A DNA stretch of 64,000 bases from Candidatus Dormiibacterota bacterium (GCA_035635575.1 DASQAV010000131.1:9860-73859), one strand, 5' to 3'; counted from the stretch's first letter, positions 448 through 54,947 are shown. The notes: a model not told the origin generated them from the sequence alone. Made by a program: numbers and translations.

Positions 448-1160
448 GCGAGCCCAGCCCGGGAACGCTCTACCTGGTCGGAACGCCGATCGGCAACGTG
501 GAGGATCTCTCCCCGCGCGCGCAGCGGATCCTGGCCGAGGTGGATCTCATCGCCGCCGAGGACACGCGGCACACGCAGGGGCTCCTCTCGCGGTTCTCGA
601 TCCACCGGCCGCTCGTCTCTTACCACGATCACAACAAGGAGCGGCGCACGCCCGAGCTGGTCGAGAAGCTGCAGGCGGGGAGCTCCGTCGCCATCGTCTC
701 CGACGCGGGCTCGCCGGGGATCTCCGATCCCGCTTTCACGCTCGTGCGCGCCGCGGTCGACGCGGGCGTACCGGTCGTGCCCGTTCCGGGAGCGTCGAGC
801 GCCCTCTGCGCGCTCGAGGTTTCCGGCCTTCCCACCGACCGGTTCGCCTTCGAGGGATTCCTTCCGCGCCGCGCCGCGCGCCGCCGCGCCCGCATCGAGG
901 AGTTGCGCCGGGACCCGCGGACCCTCATCTTCTTCGAGTCGCCGCACCGGCTTCGAGAGAGCCTGCGCGATCTCGCGGAAGCCTGGGGAGAGCGGCCGGC
1001 GTCGATCTCGCGCGAGCTGACCAAGAAATTCGAAGAGACCCGCCGGGGCACGCTGCCTTCGCTCCTCCAGTGGGTAGAGGCAACGCCGCCGCGAGGCGAG
1101 TTCGTGCTGGTGGTGGGGGGCGCTCCGCGCGCCGCGGAAGACCAAGAGGAGGGTGATTGA
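444..1160 (+). CDS. rsmI: 16S rRNA (cytidine1402-2'-O)-methyltransferase RsmI
   Basis: GTG start overlaps the upstream stop. N-terminal LYLVGTPIGNVEDLSPRAQRIL…LIAAEDTRHT and the later SDAG(S)P motif are typical of the tetrapyrrole-methylase-fold RsmI family. Length is about 238 aa. Confidence 0.85.
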   Translation: MSEPSPGTLYLVGTPIGNVEDLSPRAQRILAEVDLIAAEDTRHTQGLLSRFSIHRPLVSYHDHNKERRTPELVEKLQAGSSVAIVSDAGSPGISDPAFTLVRAAVDAGVPVVPVPGASSALCALEVSGLPTDRFAFEGFLPRRAARRRARIEELRRDPRTLIFFESPHRLRESLRDLAEAWGERPASISRELTKKFEETRRGTLPSLLQWVEATPPRGEFVLVVGGAPRAAEDQEEGD

Positions 1161-1810
1161 ACGGGAACTGGAAGGAACAGGGGCGCGAGATCTTCCGGCC
1201 CATCGGGAAATATCTCGCGGCGCGGGGCGTCATGCCGGATCACCTGACGATCCTCGGCGTGGCCCTTTCGCTCCTCGCGGCGATGTTCCTGGGCCGCGGC
1301 TCCTTCTTCGTCGCGGGCCTCGTGCTCCCGCTGGCCGGGCTCTGCGACATCCTGGACGGTGACGTGGCGCGAGAGCGCGGGATCGTGAGCCCCTTCGGCG
1401 CCTTTCTCGATTCCACGCTGGACCGGGTCAGCGAGGGCGCCCTCTACGTCGGGCTCGCCTACTACTACTTCACGCGCAGCCAGACCGCGACCGTCTGGAT
1501 GCGCGGCACGTTCGAGGGAAGCGCCGAGTGGGGAGACGCCGACGGCGCGACGCTGGGAATTCTCGCGCTCGCGATCCTCATCCTCTCCTTCCTCGTGTCC
1601 TACACGCGTGCGCGCGCCGAGGGACTGGGCATGGAGTGCAAGGTGGGGATCATGGAGCGCCCCGAGCGGCTGCTCACGCTCGGTGTGGGCGCCCTTCTGG
1701 GCCACCGATTCATGCCCGGCGTGCTGGGCGTGCTCTTCATTTTGACGCTCGTCACGGTTCTGCAGCGCGTGTATCATGTCCGGAAGCTTACTCAGACGAA
1801 CTCCGCGTAA
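1157..1810 (+). CDS. CDP-alcohol phosphatidyltransferase (phosphatidylinositol-phosphate synthase-like, PgsA1-type)
   Basis: TTG start overlaps the rsmI stop (TTGA). It is a 217-aa multi-TM protein with the CDP-OH phosphotransferase signature D-x2-DG-x2-AR…G…D-x3-D (LCDILDGDVARERG…FLDSTLDRVSEG). The size matches mycobacterial PIP synthase. It sits immediately upstream of the inositol-phosphate synthase. Confidence 0.7.
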   Translation: MNGNWKEQGREIFRPIGKYLAARGVMPDHLTILGVALSLLAAMFLGRGSFFVAGLVLPLAGLCDILDGDVARERGIVSPFGAFLDSTLDRVSEGALYVGLAYYYFTRSQTATVWMRGTFEGSAEWGDADGATLGILALAILILSFLVSYTRARAEGLGMECKVGIMERPERLLTLGVGALLGHRFMPGVLGVLFILTLVTVLQRVYHVRKLTQTNSA

Positions 1811-1889
1811 CGTTTGTCGGGGCACGCCTTAGCTTGGGTCGCGCCCGGATCCTCGAAGCCGTGCCCGTAACATCGGAGGATGGAACCTC

Positions 1890-3059
1890 ATGGGGAAGAT
1901 TCGCGTCGGCATCATCGGCGTAGGGAACTGCGCCTCATCGTTCGTTCAGGGCGTTCACTACTACCGGAATGCCAAGGACTCGGATTTCGTGCCCGGTCTC
2001 ATGCACGTGAACCTGGGCGGATATCACGTGCGCGACATCGAGTTCAGCGCCGCGATCGACATCGACAAGAACAAGGTCGGGAAGGATCTCTCCGAGGCCA
2101 TCTTCACGTGGCCGAACAACACCTACAAGTTCAGCGACGTGCCGCGCCAGGGCGTTCCCGTGGCGCGCGGCATGACGCACGACGGGCTGGGGCAGTACCT
2201 CTCCAAGATCATCCACAAGGCGCCGGGCTCCACCGCGGACATCGTGCGCCTCTTGAAAGACACGAAGACCGACGTGGTCATCAACTACCTGCCGGTGGGC
2301 AGCGAAGAGGCCACGAAGTGGTACGTGGAGCAGATCCTCGAGGCGGGCTGCGCGTTCGTGAACGCCATCCCGGTCTTCATCGCGCGCGAGAAGTACTGGC
2401 AGCGCCGGTTCGAGCAGAAGAAGCTCCCGGTGATCGGCGACGACATCAAGTCGCAGGTGGGCGCCACCATCATGCACCGCGTGCTGGCGCGCCTCTTCCT
2501 GGAGCGCGGCGTGCGGCTGGAGCGGACGAGCCAGCTCAACGTGGGCGGAAACACCGACTTCCTGAACATGCTCGAGCGGTCGCGGCTGGAGTCGAAGAAG
2601 ATCTCCAAGACGAACGCGGTCACCTCGATGCTCACCTACGACATCGGCGAGAAGAACGTCCACATCGGCCCGAGCGACTACGTCGAGTGGCTGGACGACC
2701 GCAAGTGGGCCTACATCCGCCTCGAGGGCCGCACGTTCGGGGACGTTCCGCTCAACGTCGAGCTGAAGCTCGAGGTCTGGGACTCGCCGAACTCGGCGGG
2801 CGTGATCATCGACGCGGTCCGCTGCGCGAAGCTTGCGCTGGACAACGGCCTCTCCGGGGCGCTCATCGGGCCCTCCGCCTACTTCAAGAAATCTCCTCCC
2901 GTCCAGTATCCGGACGACGTGGCCCGGCGGATGGTGGAAGAGTTCATCGAGAAGTACGGCCAGAAGAGGAAGGCGGCGCAGAAGCCCGCGCTCCTGAAGC
3001 GGCCGCGGGCCAAGGCCACGCGCGGCGGCATGAAGAAGGCCGCGCGGAAGAGCGTCTAG
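1890..3059 (+). CDS. ino1: myo-Inositol-1-phosphate synthase (inositol-3-phosphate synthase)
   Basis: 389 aa with an N-terminal Rossmann motif [18 protein letters not shown] and the central conserved block of the bacterial/archaeal MIPS family (…[11 protein letters not shown]…[12 protein letters not shown]…). A Lys-rich C-terminal tail is present. Confidence 0.85.
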
Positions 3060-3075
3060 TCCGCCTCGCCCGCCC

Positions 3076-3726
3076 GTGACGGGACTCCTGATCACCCTGG
3101 AGGGGATCGAGGGGTCCGGCAAATCGACCCAGGCCTCTCTCCTTCACAAGGCTCTCAAAACTCGGCAAATTCCGGTATGCTTGACACGCGAGCCGGGCGG
3201 CTCCCCCATCGCGGAGCGTATCCGCGAGCTGATCTTGCACTCGGGGGATGAGCCCTTGGCTCCCGGGGGGGAATTGCTCCTGTTTCTGGCCGCGCGCGCT
3301 CAAAACGTGGCGCAGACCATCCGTCCCGCCCTCGGCCGCGGCGAAGTCGTTATCTGCGACCGATTCACGGACGCTACCCTGGCGTATCAGGGGGGTGGAC
3401 GGACGATTCCAGAGACATTCCTGACCTCGCTCAACGACTGGGCCACGGGGGGGCTGAAGCCCGCCCGGACCTACCTGCTCGACATCGCGGTAGCCGAGGG
3501 GCTGGAGCGGGCGAGACACCGGCTCGGGGCAAGACCGGACCGGTTCGATCGTGAGAGCCAAGCCTTTTTCGAGGCCGTGCGCGCCCGTTACTTGGAGCTC
3601 GCGCGGCGGGAGCCGGAACGAATTGTGGTGCTACGGGGTACGGATCCAGAGACAAGTCTCGCGCATCAAATCGAGACAGACGTGCAACGGATTCTGAGCG
3701 GCTGGACACCCAAGGTACAGAGGTAA
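3076..3726 (+). CDS. tmk: Thymidylate kinase
   Basis: GTG start. P-loop LEGIEGSGKSTQ, the DRF/TDATLAYQG motif and the LID region match the Tmk family. 216 aa. Confidence 0.85.
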   Translation: MTGLLITLEGIEGSGKSTQASLLHKALKTRQIPVCLTREPGGSPIAERIRELILHSGDEPLAPGGELLLFLAARAQNVAQTIRPALGRGEVVICDRFTDATLAYQGGGRTIPETFLTSLNDWATGGLKPARTYLLDIAVAEGLERARHRLGARPDRFDRESQAFFEAVRARYLELARREPERIVVLRGTDPETSLAHQIETDVQRILSGWTPKVQR

Positions 3727-3733
3727 CCACTCC

Positions 3734-5371
3734 ATGAATCGAAGGCAGATTTTCGCGGTTTGCGTCCTCGTGGTCGCCCTGATCGCGGGTACGTGGGCGG
3801 TCGCTCGAGTGCAGGAATCGAACGACAACACGTATTCCAATATCGAACGGTTCATCCAGGTCCTGACGAAGGTCCGCGACAACTACGTCGAGCCCGTCAG
3901 CAGCGACAAGCTGATGGACGCGGCGATCCGCGGCATGCTCCGGACGCTGGACCCCTACTCGCAGTACCTCGACAAGGACGAGGCGGAGCGCCTCGAGACC
4001 ACGACGCACGGCGCCTTCGGCGGAATCGGCATCTCGATCGGGATGCGCGACCGCTGGGTCACCGTGATCGCCCCCATCGAGGGCACCCCGGCCTGGAAGG
4101 CGGGGATCCTGGGCGGCGACCGGATCATCAAGATCGACGACACCTCCACGGAAGGGCTCTCGCTGGACGACGCGATGAAGAAGATGCGCGGCGAGCGCGG
4201 CACGAAGGTCAAGCTGACCATCTACCGCGAAGGGCGTGAGAAGCCGATGGAGTTCGACATCACGCGCGACATCATCCAGATCAAGAGCGTTCCCTACGCC
4301 GGCATGCTGTCGAACGGCGTCGGGTACGTGCGCCTCTCGAATTTCTCGGAGCGCAGCCGCCAGGAGATGGACCAGGCCTTCGACAAGCTCGAGAAGATGA
4401 ATCCGCACGGAGTGATCATCGATCTCCGCTACAACCCGGGGGGTCTGCTCTCCCAGGCCGTGGAAGTGGCCGAGGAGTTCACGCCGCGCGGGAAGAAGGT
4501 CGTGTATACCCGCGGCCGCGATTCCTCGCAGAACCGCGACTTCTACTCGACCGCGGAGCACACGCACGACAGCTACCCGATCGTGATCCTCGTGAACCAG
4601 TGGACCGCTTCGGCCTCCGAGATCGTCTCGGGCGCCCTGCAAGATCTCGATCTGGGGCTGGTCGTCGGCAAGACGACGTTCGGAAAGGGGCTGGTGCAGA
4701 CGGTGATCCCGCTCACGCGCAGCGTGAAGGGCCCCAAGCTCAAGCTCACGACGGCGAAGTACTACACGCCGAGCGGCCGCTGCATCCAGAAGGACGAGCA
4801 ATTGAAAGACGGCGCCCTTGCCGAAGACGATTCCGATGATTCCGACACCAAGCCCCAGGACTCCGCCGCGGACTCGAAGAAGCCGAAGCCGGAATACCGC
4901 ACCGAGATGGGGCGGGTGGTCTACGGCGGGGGCGGCATCACGCCCGACATCGAGCTCGTGGAGGTGAAGCTTCCGCGCGTGATCGAGGACCTGGAGCAGA
5001 AGCAGGTCTTCTTCAAGTACGCGGTCAAGTACGCGTCCAAGCATCGCGATCCGCCGTCCACCTACGCCCTCACGCCCGGGATCCGGGATGAGTTCATGCA
5101 GCTCCTGCGCGACGAGAAGGTGGAGTTCAACCCCGACTCGCTGGCGGACGCCCGCAAGTGGGTGGACAGCGGTCTCCGGCGCGAGCTGGGCCGCCGCTAT
5201 GGCGGTGAGGAAGAGGCCTACCGGATCGCGCTCGAGGACGACGACCAGGTGAAGTCGGCCGCGGCGCTCTTCGACAAGGCTCCGACGCTTCCGAAGCTCC
5301 TGGCGCTCGCCTCCGAGATGAGCAAGGGCAAGCTACAGACGAATCTCCTGAACAACAAGCCGGTCCGCTAG
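3734..5371 (+). CDS. ctpA: Carboxy-terminal processing protease (S41 family, PDZ-containing)
   Basis: Signal/anchor N-terminus. PDZ segment (GGIGISIG…GTPAWKAGILGGDRIIKID) is followed by S41 catalytic motifs (IDLRYNPGG… and …NQWTASASEIVSGALQD… with the Ser/Lys dyad). 545 aa with an acidic insert. Confidence 0.85.
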   Translation: MNRRQIFAVCVLVVALIAGTWAVARVQESNDNTYSNIERFIQVLTKVRDNYVEPVSSDKLMDAAIRGMLRTLDPYSQYLDKDEAERLETTTHGAFGGIGISIGMRDRWVTVIAPIEGTPAWKAGILGGDRIIKIDDTSTEGLSLDDAMKKMRGERGTKVKLTIYREGREKPMEFDITRDIIQIKSVPYAGMLSNGVGYVRLSNFSERSRQEMDQAFDKLEKMNPHGVIIDLRYNPGGLLSQAVEVAEEFTPRGKKVVYTRGRDSSQNRDFYSTAEHTHDSYPIVILVNQWTASASEIVSGALQDLDLGLVVGKTTFGKGLVQTVIPLTRSVKGPKLKLTTAKYYTPSGRCIQKDEQLKDGALAEDDSDDSDTKPQDSAADSKKPKPEYRTEMGRVVYGGGGITPDIELVEVKLPRVIEDLEQKQVFFKYAVKYASKHRDPPSTYALTPGIRDEFMQLLRDEKVEFNPDSLADARKWVDSGLRRELGRRYGGEEEAYRIALEDDDQVKSAAALFDKAPTLPKLLALASEMSKGKLQTNLLNNKPVR

Positions 5372-5376
5372 GAGCG

Positions 5377-6432
5377 ATGCGTGCCGGGCCGGTCGAGCTT
5401 CCTGGGAATGTCCTTCTTTCGCCGCTCTGCGGCGTGACCGATTCGCCGTTCCGCCGCATCGCGCGGCGGAACGGCGCTGCCATGGTCTTCTGCGAGATGA
5501 CCTCGTCGGATGGCCTGGTGCGCAAGAACCCCAAGACCTTCGAGCTTCTGGAATACCGCCCCGAGGAGCGCCCCATCGGGGCCCAGCTCTGCGGCTCCGA
5601 TCCCGCCGTCATGGCGGAGGCGGCGCGCATATGCGAAGGGCTGGGCTTCGACACCCTCGATCTGAATTACGGCTGTCCGGTCCGCAAGGTCATCGCGCGT
5701 GAGGCCGGCGCCGCCATGCTCACCGATCTCGAGCGTCTGGAGCGCGTCACCGCCGCGGTGGTGAACGCGGTTCAGCTCCCCGTGACGGCCAAGATCCGGA
5801 TGGGCTGGGACAAGACGAACACCAACGCTCCCGAGGTCGCCAAGGTGCTCGAGCGCTCGGGCGTGAGGTGGGTCACGGTGCACGCACGCGCCCGCTCCGA
5901 GAAGTTCACCGGACAGGCGCACTGGGAAGTGATCGCCGAGGTGAAGGCCAACACGACGCTTCCCGTGATCGGAAACGGCGACGTGAAGACCCCCGAGGAT
6001 GCGCTCCGGATGATCCAGGAGACGGGCTGCGACGGCGTGATGGTGGGCCGGGGCTCGTTCGGAAATCCCTGGCTCTTCGCGCGCGCGCACCGCCTCCTGA
6101 ACGGAGACGATCCGGGCCCCGAACCCACGCCGCGAGAGCGCATCGCGACCGCGATCGGCCATCTCCACGATCTCGCGGAGAAGAAGGGGGACTATGCCGC
6201 GACGCTCATGCGGAAGCACGTTGCCTGGTACGTCCGAGGCCTCTACGACAATTCCAGCCTCTGCCGCGAGGTGAACCATGCCGCAACGCCGGCCGAGGTG
6301 GAGTCCCTTCTCCTGAACTACCTGGAACGAATCGAGAGCGCTCCCGAGCCCCAGATCCCAGAGCCCGATTCGCCGGACGCCGGGTGGAACGGCGGGGGCG
6401 TGGACGCTCATGGATCCTGCGCGGCTTCGTAA
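5377..6432 (+). CDS. dus: tRNA-dihydrouridine synthase (DusB-like)
   Basis: TIM-barrel Dus motifs are present: LSPLCGVTDSPFRRI, DLNYGCPVRKV, the conserved K and H, and C-terminal helical-domain residues. About 351 aa. Confidence 0.8.
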   Translation: MRAGPVELPGNVLLSPLCGVTDSPFRRIARRNGAAMVFCEMTSSDGLVRKNPKTFELLEYRPEERPIGAQLCGSDPAVMAEAARICEGLGFDTLDLNYGCPVRKVIAREAGAAMLTDLERLERVTAAVVNAVQLPVTAKIRMGWDKTNTNAPEVAKVLERSGVRWVTVHARARSEKFTGQAHWEVIAEVKANTTLPVIGNGDVKTPEDALRMIQETGCDGVMVGRGSFGNPWLFARAHRLLNGDDPGPEPTPRERIATAIGHLHDLAEKKGDYAATLMRKHVAWYVRGLYDNSSLCREVNHAATPAEVESLLLNYLERIESAPEPQIPEPDSPDAGWNGGGVDAHGSCAAS

Positions 6433-7201
6433 GCTTCTCACCGGAGTACGGCGCGGACGCATCACCACGAGCCAGGCGCTCGAGGCGATCGCCCATCTTC
6501 CCTTCGAATCCATCGGCGCGGGAACCGTGGACCACCATCGCGGCATTCGCCAAGCGCTCCCCGAAGTGATCCTCTGCCAGGGAAAGACCAAAGCGCAGTG
6601 TGTCTCGATCGCGCGCTCCATCGTGTCGCGGAGCGGGCGCCTGCTCGCCACCCGTGCCAGCGAGGAGCAGGCCCGCGCCCTGATGGAGGCGTTCGAGGGC
6701 GAGGCGCGATGGAACGAGGCCGCCCGGACCGTGACGGTGGAGCGCGCTCGCCGGAATGGATCCCGGTCGCGCCGTTCCCGGCGCACGGGACATGTGCTCG
6801 TCGTGAGCGCCGGGACCTCGGATCTTCCCGTGGCGGAGGAAGCCGCGGTGACCCTCGATTTCATGGGCGTGCCCGTGGACCGGGTGTACGATGCGGGCGT
6901 TGCCGGGATCCACCGCCTGCTGAAGCACGTCAAGGCGCTCCGTCAGGCCACCGCCATCGTCGTGGTGGCCGGGATGGAAGGGGCGCTCGCGAGCGTGGTC
7001 GGCGGCATCACCGACCGGCCGGTGATCGCGGTGCCCACCAGCGCGGGCTACGGCGCTTCCTTCGGCGGCCTGGCGGCGCTCCTCGCGATGCTCAATTCCT
7101 GCGCCGCGGGGGTCACCGTGGTGAACATCGACAACGGCTTCGGCGCGGGATACGCGGCGGGTGTGATCGCGCTTCGTTCCCGTTCGGGAGGCAGGTCGTG
7201 A
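6410..7201 (+). CDS. larB: Nickel-pincer cofactor biosynthesis protein LarB (PurE-like P2CMN synthase)
   Basis: An N-terminal LarB-specific domain is followed by the PurE-like fold (HVLVVSAGTSDLPVAEEA…GVAGIHRLL…VVVAGMEGALASVVGG…IAVPTSAGYG). Its start overlaps the end of dus, and its stop overlaps the larC start. Confidence 0.7.
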   Translation: MDPARLRKLLTGVRRGRITTSQALEAIAHLPFESIGAGTVDHHRGIRQALPEVILCQGKTKAQCVSIARSIVSRSGRLLATRASEEQARALMEAFEGEARWNEAARTVTVERARRNGSRSRRSRRTGHVLVVSAGTSDLPVAEEAAVTLDFMGVPVDRVYDAGVAGIHRLLKHVKALRQATAIVVVAGMEGALASVVGGITDRPVIAVPTSAGYGASFGGLAALLAMLNSCAAGVTVVNIDNGFGAGYAAGVIALRSRSGGRS

Positions 7202-8379
7202 GCATCGTCTATTTCGACTGCGTCGGCGGCGCGAGCGGCGACATGATCCTGGGCTCCCTGGTCGCGGCCGGCGCTCCGCTCCCCGAGATCGAGCGGAATC
7301 TCCGCGCCCTGCCGCTCCCGGGAATCGCCCTCTCGTCCACGGTCGTGAAGCGCCACGGCTTCGACGCCCTGCTCTTACAGGTAAGCACCGAGGAGACCAA
7401 GGCGCACCGCCACTACACGGAGATCCGCCGCATGCTGGAGGGAGGGGCGCTTCCTCCGCGCGTGCTGCGCCGCTCGCTCGCCGCCTTCGATCTCCTGGGC
7501 CGGTGCGAGGCCGAGGTGCACGGCACCTCGCTCGAGAAGGTCCACTTCCACGAGGTGGGAGCTCTGGACTCGATCGTGGACATCGTGGGCACGGCATGGG
7601 CGCTCGAGATCCTGAACGTGGAGCGCTGTCACGCTTCCGTGATCCCCCAGGGACGCGGCTTCGTGAAGGCGGCCCATGGTACGCTGCCCATCCCGGCGCC
7701 CGCGACGGTTCGAATCTTAGAGGGGGTTCCCGTGCGCATGACCGAGATCGAGGCGGAGCTGACCACGCCCACGGGCGCCGTGCTCCTGCGCACGCTGTGC
7801 GACACGATCGGCGAGCCGATCGGGATCCGGCCCCGCCGCACCGGCGTCGCGACTGGAACGATGGACTTCGCCGAGCGCCCGAACCTCATGCGCGCCATGC
7901 TGGGCGAGCCCCTGGGCGCTCAGGATCGAGGCTCGGTGGAGGTGTTCGAGACGACGATCGACGACATGAATCCCCAGCTCTACGGGCACCTCACGGAAAG
8001 CCTCTTCCTGAGCGGCGCGCGGGAGGTGTACCTGACGCCGGTCCAGATGAAGAAGGGGCGCCCGGGAGTGCTGGTGACGGCGATCTGCGACTCGGGCAAG
8101 GCCCACGCCGTGCTGGAGCGGCTCTTCAAGGAATCGACCACGATCGGCGTGCGGGTGCGTCACGAAGGACGCGTGGAGCTGGCGCGCTCGGTCGCCGAGG
8201 TGCAGACACCGCTCGGGATGATCCGAGTGAAGACCGCCATCCTGCCCACGGGCGAGGAGCGGCGCGTGCCCGAGTACGAGGACGTGAAGCGGATCGCACA
8301 ATCTCTCGGGCGCCCTTTGGTCGAAGTCATGGACGAGGTCCGCTCCTTCCTCCACGAGAGCGCGCGGACCACCGTGTAG
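7198..8379 (+). CDS. larC: Nickel insertion protein LarC (DUF111 family)
   Basis: GTG start at 7198 overlaps the larB stop. The N-terminus SIVYFDCVGGASGDMILGSL is the hallmark of the LarC/DUF111 family. The ORF track gives a longer 5'-extended ORF (6598) that overlaps larB; I prefer the 7198 start. Confidence 0.7.
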   Translation: MSIVYFDCVGGASGDMILGSLVAAGAPLPEIERNLRALPLPGIALSSTVVKRHGFDALLLQVSTEETKAHRHYTEIRRMLEGGALPPRVLRRSLAAFDLLGRCEAEVHGTSLEKVHFHEVGALDSIVDIVGTAWALEILNVERCHASVIPQGRGFVKAAHGTLPIPAPATVRILEGVPVRMTEIEAELTTPTGAVLLRTLCDTIGEPIGIRPRRTGVATGTMDFAERPNLMRAMLGEPLGAQDRGSVEVFETTIDDMNPQLYGHLTESLFLSGAREVYLTPVQMKKGRPGVLVTAICDSGKAHAVLERLFKESTTIGVRVRHEGRVELARSVAEVQTPLGMIRVKTAILPTGEERRVPEYEDVKRIAQSLGRPLVEVMDEVRSFLHESARTTV

Positions 8380-10118
8380 TGATCCGCCTCGAGGCGGTCT
8401 CGTACACGACACCGTCCTCTCCAGGGGGAGGAGCGGGCCGGACCCTCCTCGGCCCCGTCGAGTTTTCCGCGTTCCCCGGCTCGAGCCACCTTCTCCTCGG
8501 TCCCAACGGCTCCGGAAAGACCACGCTCATCCGCATCGTCGCGGGGCTCCGCGAGCCCTCCAGCGGCCGCTACCTCCTCGAGCGCGAAGAAGTGCGCGCG
8601 GGGAAGGAAGGGCGCTCTCTCTGGCCCACGGTCGCGGCACTCTTCGAGGAGCCCGACCCGCAATTTCTATCCGACACGGTGGAGGCGGAGATCGCGTTCG
8701 GGCTCGAGTCGCTGGCCATCTCCCCGCTCGAGATCCGCGCGCGAACGGAGGAAGCGCTCCGCGCGTTTTCCCTCCTGGCATTTCGGCAGAGGGCGCCCCA
8801 GAGCCTGAGCGCGGGAGAGAAGGCGCGCACCCTTCTCGCCGCCGCTCTCGCCGGGAACCCGCGCTGCATTCTCCTCGATCAGTCGCTGGCGCATCTCGAC
8901 CCCGGCTCGCGCCGCGAGCTGGAGGGCTCGGTGGTGAGGGACGCGATCGCCGGGGACCGCGCGGTCATCCGCACCCACCAGGAGGCCGATCCGCCCTTCC
9001 TCGGGGAAACCCTTCACGTGATCGAGGGAGGCTCCCTTCGCTCCCTCTCCCAGCTCACCCCGAAAGGGGTGATCGACGGAGCGCGCGTGCCGTATCCCCT
9101 GGCGCTTCGCGTTTCGGCGCTCCTCGCGTCGGGGCGGCGATGGTCCGGGCCGCTCGCCGCGGACGTGGAGCCCCTGGAGCGCGCGCTGGACCAGGCCCTG
9201 GGACCGGAGGAGGAATCGCGGGCCGCACTTCGTCCCGAAGCCCCGGCACGGGCGCCGTCCGAGGCGCGGCGCGGCCCGGTGGCGATCGCGATGAACGGCG
9301 TGGCCTGGTCGCCGTCCGGCGCGCGCGGCGCTCCGGTGCTCCACGGCGTGGACCTCGAGATCGGACCCGGCGAGATCGTCGCGGCGATCGGCAGGAGCGG
9401 CAGCGGCAAGACCACGCTCCTCAAGCTCGCGGCCGGCCTCGTGGCTCCAAGCGGAGGAACGATCCATCGCGAGCCGCCGGTCGTGGGAAGGGTGCGGCCG
9501 GTGGCGCTCGCGCTCGAGTACCCCGAGCGGCAGCTCTTCGGACGCACGGTGCTCGAGGATGTGACCGCGCTTCTCTGGATCGAGGGAATTCCGGCGGAGG
9601 AGCGCGAGCGGAGCGCGCGCCGCGCGATGACGGAAGTGGGGTTGGATCCCGACCGCTTTGCGGGGAGGTTCCCTGGGTCCTTGAGCGAAGGAGAGAAGCG
9701 GCGCGCCGCGCTGGCCGGGGTGCTCATCGAGCCGCCCCAGCTTCTCCTCCTCGACGAGCCCACGGCGGGACTGGATCCCGAGGGGAGGCGCGCTCTGGTG
9801 CGGGTTCTCGATTCGCTCCGATCGCGCGGGCGGAGCGTCCTCCTCGCGAGCCACGACCTGGCGTTCGTGGGCTCGGTGGCGGATCGCGTGTGTCTGCTCG
9901 GAAGGGAGGGGGAAGGTCCCGGCTCGATGCTCGCCCTGAGGGGAACCGCGGAAATCTTCCGGGATGACGCGCTCCTCATGCGCGCGGGCCTCCCGTCTCC
10001 CGACTTCGTGCGTCTCGAGCGCGTGCTCCGCGCTCGCGGCCTCCTCAAGCCGGTTCCGGTCAAAGACGACGCGGCGCTGCTCGACGCTCTCGTAACCGAT
10101 TCACTGGCTGCTCTTTAG
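8379..10118 (+). CDS. Fused double ABC-type ATPase (ECF/CbiO-like energy-coupling ATPase duplicate)
   Basis: GTG at 8379 overlaps the larC TAG stop. Two complete nucleotide-binding domains are present: Walker A GPNGSGKTT and GRSGSGKTT, signature motifs LSAGEKAR and LSEGEKRR, and Walker B LLDQ/LLDEPTAGLD. The long 5' part of the tracked ORF (from 7503) overlaps larC in another frame and is not coding. Confidence 0.7.
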   Translation: MIRLEAVSYTTPSSPGGGAGRTLLGPVEFSAFPGSSHLLLGPNGSGKTTLIRIVAGLREPSSGRYLLEREEVRAGKEGRSLWPTVAALFEEPDPQFLSDTVEAEIAFGLESLAISPLEIRARTEEALRAFSLLAFRQRAPQSLSAGEKARTLLAAALAGNPRCILLDQSLAHLDPGSRRELEGSVVRDAIAGDRAVIRTHQEADPPFLGETLHVIEGGSLRSLSQLTPKGVIDGARVPYPLALRVSALLASGRRWSGPLAADVEPLERALDQALGPEEESRAALRPEAPARAPSEARRGPVAIAMNGVAWSPSGARGAPVLHGVDLEIGPGEIVAAIGRSGSGKTTLLKLAAGLVAPSGGTIHREPPVVGRVRPVALALEYPERQLFGRTVLEDVTALLWIEGIPAEERERSARRAMTEVGLDPDRFAGRFPGSLSEGEKRRAALAGVLIEPPQLLLLDEPTAGLDPEGRRALVRVLDSLRSRGRSVLLASHDLAFVGSVADRVCLLGREGEGPGSMLALRGTAEIFRDDALLMRAGLPSPDFVRLERVLRARGLLKPVPVKDDAALLDALVTDSLAAL

Positions 10119-18511: not shown

Positions 18512-20196
<1,685 letters not shown>

Positions 20197-21509
20197 GGTC
20201 CTCGATCCCGCGCGCGGCATCGACCGCGTCCAGGATCTCTGGATCGTGGACGGGAAGATCGCCGGCCTGGGGGAGGACGCCCCCGCGGACGTGCGGTCCG
20301 ACCGCGCCGCCGAGGTGCTGTCGGTGAAGGGTGCCGTGATCTGCCCCGGGCTCGTGGACATCCACGTGCACCTGCGCGAGCCGGGACAGGAGGAGAAGGA
20401 GACGATCGAATCGGGAACCCTGGCCGCGGCGCGCGGCGGGTTCACCACGGTCGCCTGCATGCCGAACACCACCCCGCCGCTCGATGACCGGCCGAGGATC
20501 GAGTACGTGATCCGGCGCGCGCGCGAGAGCGGGCACGCGCGCGTCCATCCGATCGCGGCGGTGACCCGCGGACAGATGGGCGAATCGCTGACCGAGATCG
20601 AGGAGCTGGTCGAGGCGGGAGCGGTCGCGATCTCCGACGACGGAAAGCCGGTGCGGAACGCGGAGATCATGCGCCGCGCGCTCGAGCTGACCCGCCCCCT
20701 GGGGATTCCGGTCATCCAGCACGCCGAGGATCCCGATCTCAAGGGGGACGGCGTCATGCACGAGGGTTGGACGTCCACGCGGCTCGGGATGAAGGGAATC
20801 CCGGACGCGGCGGAATCGGTGATCGTCGCGCGTGACGCGCTGCTCGCCGAGCTGACGGGCGGGCACGTGCACGTGGCGCACGTGAGCGCGGGGCGCTCCA
20901 CGGAGATCATCCGGCGCGCCAAGGCCCGCGGCATCCGCATGACCGCGGAGACAGCGCCTCATTACCTGCTCCTCACGGATGAGGCGGTCGAGGGCTTCGA
21001 TCCCCGCACCAAGATGAACCCGCCGCTCCGGAGCGCCAAGGATCGCGAGGCGCTGCTCGAGGCGGTGGTGGACGGCACCCTCGATTGCCTCGCCACCGAC
21101 CACGCTCCCCATACCGACTTCGAGAAGGACTCCGATTTCGACTCCGCCCCCTTCGGGATCGTGGGGCTGGAGACGGCTCTGGGGATCTACCTCAAGGCGC
21201 TCGTCGAGCCGAAACTCCTGTCCTTGCCGGAACTGATCATGCGGATGACGGTGAATCCGCTCCGCGTGCTCGGGCTTCCCGGCGGGACGCTGGAGGCGGG
21301 CGCGCCCGCGGACGTGACGGTGTTCGACCCCTCACGGCGATGGACGGTCCGGGCCGAGGAATTCGCGTCGAAGGGCCGGAATACTCCGTTTCAGGGGTGG
21401 GAGCTTCCGGGACAGGTGCTGGTGACGATGATGGGGGGCCGGGTCACCTATCGCGCCGAGACCCTGCTGGCTGGCGCCCGATAGCGGGCTCCGGGGTTCT
21501 AGTGGTACC

Positions 21510-23267
21510 ATGGCGCCGTTCATGCGAACCCCGCACCCCAGATCGCCGGGACCCCAGATTCTCGTCGCACTCCTCCTCGTCACCTTCACCGGTTGCGCGT
21601 ACTACAACACGTTTTATCTCGCCAAGCGGTACATGCGCGAAGGCCAGAAGGCCCAGGACCGCTTCCTCCTGGACACGCCCGCCCCGGAGGCCGTGGGGAA
21701 GTACGACGGCGTCATCCGGCAGTGCGCCAAGATCCTGGTCGACTATCCCAAGAGCAAGTGGGTGGACGACGCGGTCTATTACATGGGCGCGGCGCTCTAT
21801 GGAAAGGGCGATTATCCGGCGGCGATCAAGAAATTCGGCGAGCTTCGGGCCAGCTTCCCCAAGAGCCCTTACGTGCCCGACTCCAAGCTGATGGAGGCGC
21901 TCTCGCTCTACCGGCGGAAGGAATACGTCGAGGCGGAAACGATGTTCCGCCAGGTCGAGACCCAGCATCCCAACCTCAAGCGCAAGTGGGAGCTCTACTA
22001 CTACGGAGCCGAAGACGAGGTGGGACTCAGGAATTATCCCGCCGCCCTCGCCTGGTACAAGCGCGCCGCGGAGACCGCCCAGAGCAAGCGGCAGCGCGCG
22101 AGAGCTCTGAGGCGCATGGGGGACGCGCACATGGCGAGCAAGGACTACCAGAGCGCGCAGGCGGACTACGCACAGGCGCTCAAGAACGAGGATCTCGGAG
22201 CCCGCCGGCTGGACCTGGCGCTCCAGCGAGGCGATGCGCTGGAACAGCTCAAGCATTACGACGAGGCGCTCTCCTGGTACGACAGCTGGAGGCCCTTCGC
22301 GGTGAACGAGAAGCGCGAGGGTGAGATTCTCATCCGGCGCTACGCGCTCCAGACGGTGATGGGGCGCACTCATGAGGCGATCGAGGGATACCAGGCGCTG
22401 GTGACGCAGTACCCGCGCAGCGCCATCGCCTACGAGTCGCAATTCCGGCTGGGATATCTCTATGAGTCGCAGCTGGGGGATTTCGACGCGGCCGGCCGCG
22501 AGTACGAGAAGCTGAAGGCGGAGCCCGCTCCCTCCGAATTTCAGGTGCAGGCCTCGCGGCGCGCCGCGAACCTCGCGACGATCAAGCAGTACCGATCCAC
22601 GCTCCTCTCGGACACGACGCAGGCGCGCGCGCGGGCGGCGTTCCTGCTCGCGGAGATCTACTATTTCCAGATCGAGCGGGTGGACTCGGCCATGCTCCAG
22701 TACGAGGCCGTGGAGCGCGGATTTGGCTCAAGCCCGTACGCGGCCAAGGCCGCCTTCGCCAGGCTCTGGATCCAGACCCACGACAAGGGAGACACGCTGG
22801 CCGCCGCCGCCCTCACCGACACGATCGCGAGCCGCTACCGCAGGACGCGGTACGCCGAGTCCGCGCTCTATCTCTGGCGCCAGTGGAGCGGGCGGAGCGA
22901 CGCGAGGACGGCGCTCCTGGATTCCCTGGTCGCGAATCCGGATACGACCGTGATCCGCGAGCGCCTGGAGCAGCCCGAGCCTCAGGTGAATATTTCCCCG
23001 GCGGACAGCACACGGCCGGTGATCTTCGAGACCCCGGGGCAGATCGCGGAGCGGGCGCGCCAGGATTCGCTCGCCGCGTACACCCGCGCGCTCTACCGCG
23101 CGAGGCGCCAGGGGCTGCCGCTGCCGCCTCCGCTCCCTCGGGTCACGCACCCCGCCGACGCGGACACGTCCCAAACCAGGAGCCCCGCGGCTCCGAAGCC
23201 GCCCGAACCGACAACCGGAGCGCCGCCCGACACGACCACCGGACCCACCATCGGACCCTCGCGATGA
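21510..23267 (+). CDS. TPR-repeat lipoprotein (BamD/YbgF-like repeat architecture, extended Pro-rich C-terminus)
   Basis: Signal peptide with lipobox LVTFTG|C. Multiple TPR units. C-terminal low-complexity P/T-rich tail. Its stop overlaps the pyrK ATG (ATGA). Confidence 0.6.
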   Translation: MAPFMRTPHPRSPGPQILVALLLVTFTGCAYYNTFYLAKRYMREGQKAQDRFLLDTPAPEAVGKYDGVIRQCAKILVDYPKSKWVDDAVYYMGAALYGKGDYPAAIKKFGELRASFPKSPYVPDSKLMEALSLYRRKEYVEAETMFRQVETQHPNLKRKWELYYYGAEDEVGLRNYPAALAWYKRAAETAQSKRQRARALRRMGDAHMASKDYQSAQADYAQALKNEDLGARRLDLALQRGDALEQLKHYDEALSWYDSWRPFAVNEKREGEILIRRYALQTVMGRTHEAIEGYQALVTQYPRSAIAYESQFRLGYLYESQLGDFDAAGREYEKLKAEPAPSEFQVQASRRAANLATIKQYRSTLLSDTTQARARAAFLLAEIYYFQIERVDSAMLQYEAVERGFGSSPYAAKAAFARLWIQTHDKGDTLAAAALTDTIASRYRRTRYAESALYLWRQWSGRSDARTALLDSLVANPDTTVIRERLEQPEPQVNISPADSTRPVIFETPGQIAERARQDSLAAYTRALYRARRQGLPLPPPLPRVTHPADADTSQTRSPAAPKPPEPTTGAPPDTTTGPTIGPSR

Positions 23268-24076
23268 ATCTCGTCGGGTGTTCGGTGGTCGAGAACCGCG
23301 AGATCACGCCCGGTAATTTCCTCCTCACGCTCAAGGTTCCCCGCGGATTCGCGCGGCCCGAGCCCGGACAGTTCGTGCATCTGCGCGTCTCTCCGGAATC
23401 GGAGCCCCTGCTCCGGCGGCCCTACAGCCTGGAAGGCTTCGTCGAGCGCGGGAAGATCCGCGCCGTGCGCATCTACTACTCCGTGGTGGGCCGAGGCTCC
23501 CGGGTGCTCGCGTCGCAGCCCAAGGGTCAGGAGCTGGATCTCATCGGCCCCCTGGGCCTGGGCTTCACGCCGCGGCCGCGCCGCGCGCCCATCCTCGTCG
23601 CCGGCGGGCGCGGCGTGGCCCCCTTGCTCTTCTTTGCCCGGAGGCTCCGCGAGAAGAAGCGCCCCTTTCTCTTCCTCTTCGGCGCGCGCTCCGCACGCGA
23701 GCTCTACGGAGTCCGCGAGATCCGAGGCGGAAGGATCCACCTCGCCACCGACGACGGGTCGGTCGGCTATCACGGAAGCGTGCTCGATCTCCTGAAGCAA
23801 CAGTGGGAGGCAGGGGAGCACACGCGGCTCACGGCGGAGATCTTCACGTGCGGCCCGCACGGACTCCTCCACGAGGTCGCGGCGTTCGCCGGGGAGCTCG
23901 GGATCCGCTGCGAGGCCTCGCTGGAAGGGCCGATGGCCTGCGCCGTCGGGGCCTGCCGCGGATGTCCCGTGCCGCTCCTCTCGGGCGCCGACGGAGACGG
24001 CGGGCGCTATCCCGCGATGTGCATCGAGGGGCCGGTCATGGACGCCACGATCGTGGACTGGGAGCGGCTGCCGTGA
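23264..24076 (+). CDS. pyrK: Dihydroorotate dehydrogenase electron-transfer subunit (FAD/NAD-binding, 2Fe-2S)
   Basis: Ferredoxin-reductase-type fold with R-x-Y-S FAD motif (RRPYSL) and C-terminal Cys cluster CAVGACRGC…C for 2Fe-2S. Start taken at ATG 23264; the tracked ORF extends upstream through the TPR gene in another frame. Confidence 0.8.
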   Translation: MNLVGCSVVENREITPGNFLLTLKVPRGFARPEPGQFVHLRVSPESEPLLRRPYSLEGFVERGKIRAVRIYYSVVGRGSRVLASQPKGQELDLIGPLGLGFTPRPRRAPILVAGGRGVAPLLFFARRLREKKRPFLFLFGARSARELYGVREIRGGRIHLATDDGSVGYHGSVLDLLKQQWEAGEHTRLTAEIFTCGPHGLLHEVAAFAGELGIRCEASLEGPMACAVGACRGCPVPLLSGADGDGGRYPAMCIEGPVMDATIVDWERLP

Positions 24077-54946: not shown

Positions 54947-54947
54947 C

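What the first reader, a model, noticed from the sequence alone, without database searches (positions are those of the whole stretch)
6410..10118. larB-larC translationally fused to a double-headed ABC ATPase; larE/larA absent locally
LarB (PurE-like) and LarC (DUF111, signature FDCVGGASGDM) have overlapping stop/start codons (GTGA). LarC's TAG in turn overlaps the GTG of a roughly 579-aa protein made of two complete ABC nucleotide-binding domains of the ECF/CbiO type. No transmembrane partner, LarE (sulfur insertase) or LarA (racemase or other NPN-dependent enzyme) is present in the window. The ATPase may energise Ni or precursor uptake for the nickel-pincer cofactor, or it may represent an unrecognised cofactor-maturation role.
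Basis: partly seen in the sequence, partly recalled or inferred. Interest (0 to 1): 0.5.

Follow-up and report, generated by a model that had tools for sequence, protein, structure and literature searches.

The report
Nickel-pincer genes with orphan ABC ATPase
Two genuine nickel-pincer cofactor genes (larB, larC) are read together with a fused, half-degenerate ECF-type ABC ATPase in a gene string conserved across the candidate phylum Eiseniibacteriota, but the ATPase stays intact in a lineage that deleted larB-larC, so this is a modest variant of a known theme, not a new system.

Summary
LarB is at 6410-7201, LarC at 7198-8379, and a 579-aa protein with two ABC domains is at 8379-10118. The genes overlap by 4 nt and 1 nt. 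The window holds no LarE, LarA, CbiM or CbiQ/EcfT.

LarB and LarC pass NCBI's equivalog models and keep the published catalytic residues. The ATPase belongs to a discrete family found almost only in Eiseniibacteriota MAGs. Its halves resemble EcfA1 and EcfA2, but both score far below the curated cut-offs. In every family member aligned, the first domain has Gln in place of the catalytic Glu, and both Q-loop Gln residues are Glu.

- In 52 of 54 informative family loci, larC lies directly upstream of the ATPase, at the end of a tight string tmk-ctp-dusB-larB-larC-abc.
- None of 60 family loci has an EcfT, CbiM or LarE within 10 kb. Most of the ~110 more distant, mostly fused, ECF-type ATPase loci have an adjacent CbiQ.
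- One lineage precisely deleted larB-larC and kept the ATPase intact, now coupled to dusB.

Most likely the ATPase is the motor of an ECF-type importer whose membrane parts are encoded elsewhere. Nickel is a plausible substrate but unproven. A soluble maturation role is not excluded. Interest is moderate to low.

The parts
5377..6432 (+). dusB (tRNA dihydrouridine synthase). It is the upstream cistron and overlaps larB by 23 nt. It is context, not part of the Lar pathway.
   Evidence: TIGR00737 DusB 363 bits against a cut-off of 293; Pfam Dus. Present upstream of larB in 30 of 30 related loci with enough DNA.
6410..7201 (+). larB: pyridinium-3,5-biscarboxylic acid mononucleotide synthase, the first step of nickel-pincer nucleotide synthesis.
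   Evidence: NF033503 LarB equivalog 278 bits against 175. 206 bits to L. plantarum LarB, PDB 7mj0. The Cys aligned to Cys221 of that enzyme is kept (C232).
7198..7201 (+). GTGA overlap of the larB stop and the larC start.
   Evidence: Sequence. The same 4-nt overlap is found in 38 of 41 related loci.
7198..8379 (+). larC: CTP-dependent nickel insertase (cyclometallase), with the LarC1 and LarC2 domains in one chain.
   Evidence: TIGR00299 189 bits against 90 and NF052512 131 bits against 50. Pfam Ni_insertion 427 bits. 315 bits to M. thermoacetica LarC, PDB 12bi. E104 and the His patch H53/H70/H72/H108/H116/H118/H160 named in PMC13510736 are conserved.
8379..8379 (+). Single base shared by the larC TAG and the GTG start of the ABC gene.
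   Evidence: Sequence. The larC/abc overlap is kept in 39 of 53 family loci (-4 in 31, -1 in 8); the other loci have gaps of at most 57 nt, apart from one aberrant locus (-53).
8379..10118 (+). Fused two-domain ABC ATPase of ECF descent (EcfA1-like half followed by EcfA2-like half), 579 aa, with no transmembrane segment.
   Evidence: Two ABC_tran domains. First half best hit ECF_ATPase_1, 124 bits; second half best hit ECF_ATPase_2, 167 bits. No hydrophobic segment. AlphaFold2 model pLDDT 85.6, pTM 0.85. Discrete family: 658-853 bits for members, at most 385 bits for the next proteins.
8499..8522 (+). Walker A of domain 1 (GPNGSGKT, aa 41-48), intact.
8877..8882 (+). Walker B end of domain 1: Asp167-Gln168. 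Gln replaces the catalytic Glu, which makes this a degenerate ATP site.
   Evidence: D167 and Q168 are invariant in 17 family members. The 20 outgroup fused ECF ATPases all have Glu here.
8643..8666 (+). Q-loop and Q-helix of domain 1 (FEEPDPQF). The Q-loop Gln is replaced by Glu; the PDxQF coupling motif is invariant.
   Evidence: E90-Q95 are invariant. The outgroup has Gln at the Q-loop position in 95% of sequences.
9204..9272 (+). Disordered, poorly conserved linker between the two halves (aa 276-298).
   Evidence: pLDDT below 50. Variable in length and sequence in alignment A1.
9390..9413 (+). Walker A of domain 2 (GRSGSGKT, aa 338-345).
9753..9758 (+). Walker B end of domain 2: Asp459-Glu460. 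This is the canonical catalytic site, followed by the D-loop TAGLD and the H-loop SHD (aa 491-493).
   Evidence: D459, E460, S491, H492 and D493 are invariant.

Best explanation
The segment is the 3' end of a long, tightly packed gene string, tmk-ctp-dusB-larB-larC-abc, inherited vertically throughout the candidate phylum Eiseniibacteriota.

LarB and LarC are the genuine first and last enzymes of nickel-pincer nucleotide (NPN) synthesis. LarB carboxylates and hydrolyses NaAD. LarC inserts Ni using CTP. The sulfur insertase LarE and the NPN-using enzymes must be encoded elsewhere in the genome.

The third gene encodes a fused EcfA1-EcfA2-type ABC ATPase with one catalytic ATP site (Walker motifs of domain 2) and one degenerate, probably ATP-binding-only site (domain 1). 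Most likely it is the cytoplasmic motor of an ECF-type importer whose T subunit (EcfT/CbiQ) and S subunit are unlinked. Nickel supply is a plausible substrate but not an established one.

Its coupling to larC ensures co-expression, but the ATPase is not dedicated to LarB and LarC.

Shown here:
- identity of LarB and LarC
- domain make-up and motif states of the ATPase
- conservation and tightness of the string
- absence of partners nearby
- survival of the ATPase after deletion of larB-larC

Inferred:
- that the ATPase docks on a membrane T subunit
- the substrate
- co-transcription
For: LarB and LarC:
- Both pass the equivalog models.
- Both match the solved structures with key residues kept.

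ECF descent of the ATPase:
- The best family hits for the two halves are ECF_ATPase_1 and ECF_ATPase_2.
- The best single-domain PDB matches are EcfA2, EcfA1 and CbiO, at 30-32% identity and TM 0.73-0.83. The matches run through the ECF-type C-terminal domain.
- The Q-helix motifs PDPQF and PERQLF, which in ECF ATPases contact the T subunit (my knowledge, Karpowich and Wang 2013), are among the few invariant stretches of a fast-evolving protein.

Outgroup context:
- More distant (29-38% identical), mostly fused ECF-type ATPases sit next to a CbiQ/EcfT gene in most of ~110 loci, often with an S component or CbiM.

Synteny:
- 52 of 54 informative family loci have larC directly upstream. LarB is present in 40 of 40, Dus in 30 of 30, and Ctp plus tmk in 22 of 22. 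The block is the same in six loci with full annotation.

Independence from Lar:
- L002/L003 equal L168 minus about 2.07 kb that removes larB and larC but keeps the GTGA junction.
- The ATPase there is intact, with dN/dS 0.25 and no longer a branch than its sisters: 0.286 against 0.275 and 0.276.
- No LarC at 97% identity or above lies on that lineage's 2.14-Mb or 630-kb contigs.

Analogy for nickel:
- L161 is LarE-LarB-LarC-CbiM-CbiQ-CbiO. L070 is CbiM-CbiQ-CbiO-LarE-LarC-LarB.
- LarMNOQ is cited as a Co/Ni transporter in PMC13548328.

LarA in the phylum:
- A LarA homologue from Candidatus Eisenbacteria (HSR24722.1) is listed in PMC12611868.
Against: - No T or S component could be shown for any Eiseniibacteriota genome. 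None lies within 10 kb in 60 loci, and the genome-wide search could not be run.
- Neither the whole protein nor either half reaches the curated ECF ATPase cut-offs: 261 against 330 and 248 against 315 for the whole protein; 124 and 167 for the halves.
- Both Q-loop Gln residues are Glu. This is not seen in the 20 T-linked outgroup proteins and could mean a different partner or mechanism.
- The stop-start overlap with larC is conserved in 39 of 53 loci. That is also what a dedicated Lar accessory gene would show.
- The evidence that the deletion lineage lacks lar genes altogether is incomplete, because only the large contigs and close homologues were tested.
Confidence: 0.5

Rival explanations
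1. Dedicated nickel (or cobalt) energiser. The ATPase is the LarO/NikO/CbiO equivalent of a Ni-specific ECF transporter that exists to feed LarC. Its CbiM/N/Q-type membrane parts have moved elsewhere in the genome.
For: - lar genes are adjacent to CbiM-CbiQ-CbiO in unrelated lineages (L161, L070).
- Fused double ATPases do occur in CbiM-CbiQ contexts (L021, L022, L080).
- The position directly after larC and the stop-start overlap are conserved.
- LarMNOQ is described as a Co/Ni transporter (PMC13548328).
Against: - No CbiM, CbiN or CbiQ lies in any of 60 family loci.
- In the NJ tree the family does not group with the CbiM-linked fused ATPases.
- The halves score slightly better as EcfA1 and EcfA2 than as cbiO. 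The apparent pass of TIGR01166 is only the sum of two sub-threshold halves, 116 and 126 against 211.8.
- The ATPase is retained intact after deletion of larB-larC.
- No NiCo or other riboswitch is present.
Confidence: 0.2
2. Soluble, non-transport ABC ATPase that acts in NPN cofactor or enzyme maturation. It might remodel or recycle LarC, or load NPN into its client enzymes. This would be analogous to MCR component A2 or SufC.
For: - No membrane partner lies nearby in any locus.
- One ATP site is degenerate, and both Q-loops are altered (Gln to Glu), unlike T-linked relatives.
- Coupling to larC is tight and conserved.
- The top whole-chain fold match is MCR component A2 (8s7v_K, TMq 0.64). 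A2 is a soluble two-domain ABC ATPase that drives activation of a nickel enzyme (PMC12176620; bioRxiv 10.64898/2026.03.18.712670).
Against: - The A2 match is generic. Identity is 22%, DppD, OppD and ABC-F proteins score alike, and single ECF ATPases are closer in sequence.
- The N-terminal zinc-binding motif that defines A2 is absent; the first 50 residues contain no Cys.
- The ATPase persists under purifying selection where larB-larC are deleted.
- It evolves 2-4 times faster than LarC, which is unlike a tightly co-adapted partner.
- The T-docking Q-helix motifs are invariant.
Confidence: 0.12
3. Pure positional coincidence. The ATPase serves an unrelated process, such as a vitamin ECF module or another ABC function, and sits after larC only because this phylum keeps a long, frozen supra-operon.
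For: - The same string joins functionally unrelated genes: tmk, an S41 protease and dusB, with gaps of 5-7 nt and a 23-nt dusB/larB overlap.
- The whole 20-kb neighbourhood is syntenic across the phylum.
- The deletion lineage recouples the ATPase to dusB.
- The nearest outside group (L135, L153) is also orphan and has no lar genes nearby.
Against: - ECF-type ATPases recur next to lar genes in other phyla, so a link to nickel is not far-fetched.
- This reading overlaps with the best explanation and differs from it only on the substrate.
Confidence: 0.18

Closest known systems
L. plantarum lar cluster with its Lar(MN)QO Ni/Co ECF transporter, and the LarE-LarB-LarC-CbiM-CbiQ-CbiO clusters seen here in L161 and L070
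   Same: - larB and larC are co-located with an ECF-family ABC ATPase.
- LarB and LarC are orthologous: equivalog models pass and PDB matches are strong.
   Different: - Here there is no CbiM/N or CbiQ and no LarE or LarA in the cluster.
- The ATPase is a fused two-domain protein with one degenerate site, not a single-domain CbiO homodimer.
- The genes are embedded in a housekeeping string rather than a dedicated lar operon.
Group II ECF energising module EcfA1-EcfA2(-EcfT), for example T. maritima TM0222 (PDB 2yz2, 4hlu, 4zir) and L. delbrueckii ECF (5d3m, 5jsz)
   Same: - The order is an EcfA1-like half followed by an EcfA2-like half.
- Both halves have the ECF-type C-terminal domain and Q-helix motifs.
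- From my own knowledge, the T. maritima module genes are also unlinked in the genome.
   Different: - The two halves are fused into one chain.
- Scores are far below the equivalog cut-offs.
- Domain 1 has Walker-B Glu replaced by Gln, and both Q-loops have Gln replaced by Glu.
- No EcfT is demonstrated.
Fused (duplicated) ECF ATPases encoded next to a T component, of the YkoD type, as in Firmicutes, Chloroflexota and Desulfobacterota loci L006-L084
   Same: - Same architecture, about 560-600 aa with two ECF-type domains.
- 29-38% identity.
   Different: - Those genes are adjacent to CbiQ/EcfT in most loci, and often to an S component. The Eiseniibacteriota family never is.
- Those proteins keep canonical catalytic Glu and Q-loop Gln in both halves.
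Methyl-coenzyme M reductase activation component A2 (AtwA; PDB 8s7v chain K)
   Same: - A soluble protein with two ABC domains and no membrane domain, working with a nickel-cofactor enzyme.
- It is the top whole-chain Foldseek match.
- Its two domains contribute asymmetrically.
   Different: - Identity is only 22%.
- It is archaeal and linked to MCR.
- It is defined by an N-terminal zinc-binding motif that is absent here.
- The fold match is no better than to DppD, OppD or ABC-F proteins.

Membership tests
LarB (NPN biosynthesis, PurE-like) | Scores above the curated equivalog model and well above PurE. | tested here: met
   NF033503 278 bits against a cut-off of 175. purE TIGR01162 only 39 bits against 150.
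LarB (NPN biosynthesis, PurE-like) | Full-length similarity to the characterised L. plantarum enzyme, with the active-site Cys (Cys221) kept. The role of this Cys is from my own knowledge. | tested here: met
   206 bits to 7mj0 over residues 8-253. The motif MLNSCA(A/S)G is aligned, and C232 corresponds to C221.
LarC (CTP-dependent Ni insertase) | Both the LarC1 and LarC2 domains are present and above the curated cut-offs. | tested here: met
   TIGR00299 189 bits against 90. NF052512 131 bits against 50. Pfam Ni_insertion 427 bits over the whole model.
LarC (CTP-dependent Ni insertase) | Proposed catalytic Glu104 and the surface His patch of the LarC1 domain (PMC13510736). | tested here: met
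   In the ungapped N-terminal alignment to 12bi, E104, H53, H70, H72, H108, H116, H118 and H160 are conserved. H226 aligns to Arg.
Complete NPN pathway (LarB + LarE + LarC + client enzyme) | LarE and a LarA-type or other NPN-dependent enzyme are encoded in the same genome. | not testable with these tools
   Both are absent from the window, and LarE is absent from 60 related loci. Whole genomes could not be scanned. A LarA homologue from the phylum is listed in PMC12611868.
ECF transporter ATPase (EcfA1/EcfA2) | Scores above the curated equivalog cut-offs. | tested here: not met
   Whole protein: TIGR04521 261 against 330; TIGR04520 248 against 315. Halves: 124 and 167 bits. These are still the best-scoring families.
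ECF transporter ATPase (EcfA1/EcfA2) | ECF-type Q-helix motif (P-D/E-x-Q-hydrophobic) and the C-terminal helical domain in each half. The definition of these features is from my own knowledge. | tested here: met
   PDPQF and PERQLF are invariant. PDB matches to EcfA1, EcfA2 and CbiO extend to residues 558-571, with TM 0.73-0.83.
ECF transporter ATPase (EcfA1/EcfA2) | Works with an EcfT/CbiQ transmembrane subunit, usually encoded alongside. | tested here: not met
   No CbiQ lies within +-10 kb in 60 family loci. Most outgroup loci have one (Pfam check). Genome-wide presence could not be tested.
ECF transporter ATPase (EcfA1/EcfA2) | Two hydrolysis-competent ATP sites (Walker-B Glu, Q-loop Gln, H-loop His in both domains). 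| tested here: not met
   Domain 1 has Gln168 in place of Glu, invariant in the family. Its H-loop His is not conserved. The Q-loop residue is Glu in both domains. Domain 2 is otherwise canonical.
CbiO/NikO/LarO (group I metal ECF ATPase) | Encoded with CbiM/NikM(N) and CbiQ. | tested here: not met
   No CbiM or CbiQ hit in the window at E<=10 or in family loci.
CbiO/NikO/LarO (group I metal ECF ATPase) | Passes the cbiO subfamily model TIGR01166. | tested here: inconclusive
   The whole protein scores 238 against 211.8, but each half alone scores 116 and 126. The pass is the sum of two sub-threshold domains.
MCR component A2 (AtwA) | N-terminal zinc-binding motif that separates A2 from related ABC ATPases (bioRxiv 10.64898/2026.03.18.712670). 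| tested here: not met
   The N-terminus is MIRLEAVSYTTPSSPGGGAGRTLL..., with no Cys in the first 50 residues. Identity to 8s7v_K is 22%.
ABC-F translation factors | Passes ABC-F models and has a long helical inter-domain linker. | tested here: not met
   NF000355 scores 96 against 380, for the second half only. The linker at 276-298 is short and predicted disordered.

The most novel reading that the evidence does not exclude
The Eiseniibacteriota ATPase has left transport. On this reading it is a soluble ABC machine with one active site that acts on the nickel-pincer pathway, for instance by resetting LarC or by loading NPN into client enzymes. It would be a bacterial counterpart of the way component A2 serves the nickel enzyme MCR.

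The evidence does not exclude this:
- no membrane partner is seen in 60 loci
- both Q-loops are altered
- coupling to larC is old and tight

The deletion lineage and the invariant T-docking motifs speak against it.
Probability: 0.1. Interest if true: 0.75.

Novelty: new variant of a known kind. Interest (0 to 1): 0.33.

Why it matters
LarB, LarC and ECF ATPases are all known, and lar genes are already known to sit beside Ni/Co ECF transporters. Three things are new, on a modest scale.

- **A discrete ATPase family.** It is a phylum-specific family of fused ECF-type ATPases with one degenerate site and altered Q-loops, and it is never encoded with a T subunit.
- **Old, tight coupling to larB-larC.** The coupling is as old as the phylum and sits inside a housekeeping gene string.
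- **A natural deletion.** One lineage lost larB-larC and kept the ATPase, which separates the two.

If the ATPase proves to be a nickel-uptake motor, it adds a variant architecture to Ni-ECF systems. If it proves to be soluble, it would be a new accessory factor for nickel-pincer cofactor biology.

The result also shows that stop-start overlap in this phylum is not a reliable sign of shared function.

Tried and rejected
1. **Genome-collection scan with the full ATPase alignment.** It was swamped by generic ABC motifs (DEPTAGLDP) and returned only one family locus. It still gave a useful outgroup. A second scan of metagenomes with a family-specific 63-aa segment worked.
2. **Search for a relocated larC in the deletion lineage.** I matched the 'longest contig' values in the protein searches and made one context look-up. 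No copy lies on the 2.14-Mb or 630-kb contigs. The rest of that genome, and any divergent copies, remain untested.
3. **Genome-wide search for EcfT/CbiQ, CbiM, LarE and LarA in Eiseniibacteriota.** This was not possible.
4. **NJ tree to find the sister group, CbiM-linked or vitamin-type.** The family branches deep on its own, so the tree is uninformative.
5. **Relaxed selection after the deletion.** dN/dS is 0.25, against 0.15-0.22 in comparable intact pairs. The ABC/Ctp dN ratio is 9.8 against 3.3-7.1. This is at most a slight rise, and the relative-rate test shows no clear acceleration.
6. **An H-loop change in domain 1.** MAFFT first suggested His replaced by Gln. On inspection, 'RTHQ' fits the canonical S/T-His pattern. 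I therefore claim only that the His is not conserved in the family.
7. **Identification as MCR component A2, raised by the top fold hit.** Rejected: identity is low, the zinc motif is absent, and other two-domain ABC proteins score equally well.
8. **Regulatory signals.** Riboswitch or other RNA families, tRNAs and promoter or terminator patterns gave nothing above chance.
9. **The 7-TM ORF at 54146-54946 as a hidden EcfT.** It has no CbiQ similarity.
10. **The afdb50 fold library.** It was unavailable.

Full report
**1. What is in the sequence**

The window has about 68% G+C. Third-position GC analysis picks one coding frame along 1157-10118 on the + strand. The cistrons are packed as follows:

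- CDP-alcohol phosphatidyltransferase, 1157-1810
- inositol-1-phosphate synthase, 1890-3059
- tmk, 3076-3726
- an S41 C-terminal processing protease, 3734-5371
- dusB, 5377-6432
- larB, 6410-7201
- larC, 7198-8379
- a 579-aa ABC gene, 8379-10118

The junctions from tmk onwards are +7 and +5 nt, then overlaps of 23, 4 (GTGA) and 1 (TAGTG) nt. An 82-nt gap follows before a small GAF gene and a PAS histidine kinase. No terminator-like or promoter-like signal above chance lies inside the string.

**2. LarB and LarC are genuine**

LarB scores 278 bits on NCBI's LarB equivalog model (cut-off 175) and only 39 bits on PurE. It matches L. plantarum LarB (PDB 7mj0) at 206 bits over its whole length, with the Cys221 position kept.

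LarC passes both the LarC1 and LarC2 models. It matches the full-length M. thermoacetica LarC structure at 315 bits. Glu104 and seven of the eight histidines of the putative nickel patch described in PMC13510736 are conserved. The 'other paralogue' refutation therefore fails.

**3. The ATPase**

The protein has two ABC_tran domains and no hydrophobic segment. Scanned separately, the first half hits ECF_ATPase_1 best (124 bits) and the second half hits ECF_ATPase_2 best (167 bits). Both are far below the curated cut-offs of 315 and 330. The apparent pass of the cbiO subfamily model is the sum of two sub-threshold halves.

The best single-domain PDB relatives are T. maritima EcfA2, other EcfA1 and EcfA2 chains, and CbiO. 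Identity is 30-32% and TM is 0.73-0.83, and the matches run through the ECF-type C-terminal domain. An AlphaFold2 model built from 17 family members is confident (pLDDT 85.6, pTM 0.85) apart from the inter-domain linker at 276-298.

Whole-chain fold matches are to other two-domain ABC proteins: MCR component A2 first, then DppD and OppD, then ABC-F factors, all at about 20-22% identity. These matches reflect the shared architecture, not a specific relationship.

**4. A discrete, phylum-restricted family with an unusual motif set**

A word-indexed protein search found about 120 close relatives, 48-100% identical and all about 560-600 aa. Where they carry a name, it is mostly Candidatus Eisenbacteria (Eiseniibacteriota) MAGs.

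A profile search of 1.84 billion cluster representatives shows a sharp break. Family clusters score 658-853 bits. The next proteins score at most 385 bits and merge into 22,599 generic hits.

I compared the family with 20 outgroup fused ECF ATPases. Family members differ as follows:
- Gln replaces the Walker-B catalytic Glu of domain 1. This is invariant in the family; Glu is at 100% in the outgroup.
- The D-loop of domain 1 reads SLAHLD.
- The H-loop His of domain 1 is not conserved.
- Glu replaces the Q-loop Gln in both domains.

Domain 2 is otherwise canonical. The Q-helix motifs (PDPQF, PERQLF) are invariant. In ECF ATPases these motifs form the groove that holds the T subunit's coupling helices (my own knowledge). 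The protein therefore has one catalytic and one degenerate ATP site.

**5. Genomic context in relatives**

I collected 60 family loci.

- Of 54 loci with enough upstream DNA, 52 have larC immediately upstream of the ATPase.
- LarB is present in 40 of 40 loci, Dus in 30 of 30, and Ctp plus tmk in 22 of 22.
- The larC/abc overlap is kept in 39 of 53 loci, and the larB/larC overlap in 38 of 41.
- The wider neighbourhood is also syntenic, from a Zn-peptidase gene to the pyr operon. The genes just downstream of the ATPase vary: a PAS kinase, an O-methyltransferase or a TPR protein.
- None of the 60 loci contains a CbiQ/EcfT, CbiM or LarE gene within 10 kb, according to HMMs I built from Pfam- or NCBIfam-verified seeds.
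- By contrast, most of the ~110 outgroup loci have a CbiQ gene next to the ATPase, often with an S component or CbiM.

The family is therefore unusual among ECF-type ATPases in being an orphan. Unlinked ECF module genes are known elsewhere, for example in T. maritima (my own knowledge), so orphan status alone does not prove a non-transport role.

**6. The natural deletion**

In one lineage (protein P0103; contigs of 630 kb and 2.14 Mb from two samples), dusB is followed directly by the ATPase gene. Its closest relatives, at 85% and 83% ATPase identity, have the usual dusB-larB-larC-abc order and otherwise identical flanks.

DNA alignment shows that the deleted version equals the intact one minus about 2.07 kb. 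The deletion runs from the end of dusB to the last few bases of larC and preserves the GTGA junction.

Selection on the ATPase after the deletion:
- The gene is intact and keeps all family motifs.
- Its dN/dS against the intact relative is 0.25. Ctp is 0.05 and Dus is 0.06. Comparable intact pairs give 0.15-0.22.
- Its distance to an outgroup is 0.286, against 0.275 and 0.276 for its sisters.

A search with the closest LarC found near-identical LarCs (97% or above) only on other contigs. The one I examined is a standard dusB-larB-larC-abc locus from another sample. At least on 2.14 Mb of that genome there is no vertical larC copy, yet the ATPase is maintained. This argues that the ATPase is not solely an accessory of LarB and LarC.

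The ATPase is also the fastest-evolving gene of the string, with dN 2-4 times that of LarC.

**7. Support for a nickel link by analogy**

Two unrelated loci picked up by the scans carry full lar clusters with a metal ECF transporter.
- L161: LarE-LarB-LarC-CbiM(PDGLE)-CbiQ-CbiO.
- L070, a Spirochaetaceae MAG: CbiM-CbiQ-CbiO-LarE-LarC-LarB.

LarE was confirmed in both by the TIGR00268 equivalog. LarMNOQ is referred to as a cobalt/nickel transporter in PMC13548328. Fused double ATPases occur in CbiM-CbiQ contexts in Desulfobacterota (L021, L022, L080). So an ECF ATPase after larC fits a recurrent theme. The NJ tree, however, does not place the family with the CbiM-linked ATPases.

**8. Where the rest of the pathway is**

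LarE and LarA are absent from the window and from all related loci. Whole genomes could not be scanned with the tools and caps available. A LarA homologue from Candidatus Eisenbacteria is listed in PMC12611868. Non-LarA NPN enzymes are now also known (PMC13524815). A complete pathway with dispersed genes is the expected situation, but I have not shown it.

**9. Verdict**

The most likely reading (about 0.5) is as follows. These are genuine larB and larC genes, co-expressed as the tail of a frozen housekeeping string. With them sits a divergent, fused, one-active-site ECF-type ATPase that drives an importer whose membrane subunits are unlinked. Nickel is a plausible substrate but unproven, and the ATPase is not dedicated to Lar.

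The rivals are:
- a dedicated Ni energiser, about 0.2
- a purely positional neighbour with an unrelated substrate, about 0.18
- a soluble maturation or remodelling ATPase, about 0.12

The finding is a new variant of a known kind and of moderate-to-low interest. The decisive test is a simple whole-genome HMM scan for EcfT/CbiQ, CbiM, LarE and LarA in Eiseniibacteriota genomes, including the deletion lineage.

Noticed in passing
L070:533-6983 (Spirochaetaceae MAG QKAI01000505.1): An aldo-keto reductase gene (533-1498) lies upstream of a CbiM-CbiQ-CbiO-LarE-LarC-LarB cluster. This matches the recently described AKR-type nickel-pincer enzymes (NphT) that co-occur with larBCE (PMC13524815).
   Followed up: partly
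L161:1335-8576 (metagenome contig OGIE01006686.1): A compact lar cluster: a LysR regulator, then, after a 1-kb stretch with a 135-aa minus-strand ORF I did not characterise, LarE-LarB-LarC-CbiM(PDGLE)-CbiQ-CbiO, all on one strand with tiny gaps. It is a clean example of lar genes with a metal ECF transporter. Its LarB is 49% identical to the window's.
   Followed up: partly
window 1-64000 and loci L005, L085-L134: NCBI labels for contigs that carry this same syntenic block disagree: Dormibacteraeota (the window's own contig), Binatia, Bacteroidota, Planctomycetota, Limnocylindrales, Acidobacteriota and Hyphomicrobiales. Most are labelled Eisenbacteria. The shared gene order suggests that many of these MAG labels or bins are wrong.
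   Followed up: no
window 1880-3079 and 1890-3059 (+): Two long overlapping ORFs lie in different frames. Only 1890-3059 is coding (inositol-1-phosphate synthase, Pfam 130 bits). It follows a CDP-alcohol phosphatidyltransferase, which suggests synthesis of an inositol lipid or di-myo-inositol phosphate. The pair is conserved across the phylum.
   Followed up: partly
L135:9689-11479 and L153:9767-11506: A second group of orphan fused ECF-type ATPases, 33% identical to the window protein and the nearest outside group. It has 'ITQ' in place of the domain-1 H-loop His. No CbiQ or lar gene lies within 10 kb. The genes sit between an alpha/beta hydrolase, GT2 and PMT_2 block and a pyrC-like gene.
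   Followed up: partly
L167:7993-8826; L169:2976-5983; L004:5360-6993: In some related contigs, larB (L167), the S41 protease (L004, L169) or the inositol-phosphate synthase and tmk (L169) are called as split or fused ORFs. These may be frameshifts or assembly errors, or in the case of larB an early pseudogene.
   Followed up: no
window 52941-56470 (+): A DUF6754 protein (373 bits) is followed by a 266-aa protein with seven hydrophobic segments and further membrane ORFs that match no Pfam family. This is an uncharacterised membrane gene cluster. It has no similarity to CbiQ.
   Followed up: partly
window 25472-50121: A large polysaccharide and O-antigen type cluster: nucleotide-sugar dehydratases and epimerases, Wzx-, Wzy-, Wzz- and Wza-like genes, many GT4 and GT2 transferases, and an initiating sugar transferase. 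It lies downstream of a pyrimidine biosynthesis operon at 18620-25757.
   Followed up: no
window 8379-10118 compared with 3734-8379: The ATPase evolves much faster than its neighbours, with dN 2-4 times that of LarC, LarB, Dus or Ctp in the same genome pairs. Yet it keeps a handful of invariant motif blocks. LarC is unusually conserved across the phylum: every listed relative, including those whose ATPase is only about 50% identical, is at least 72% identical.
   Followed up: partly
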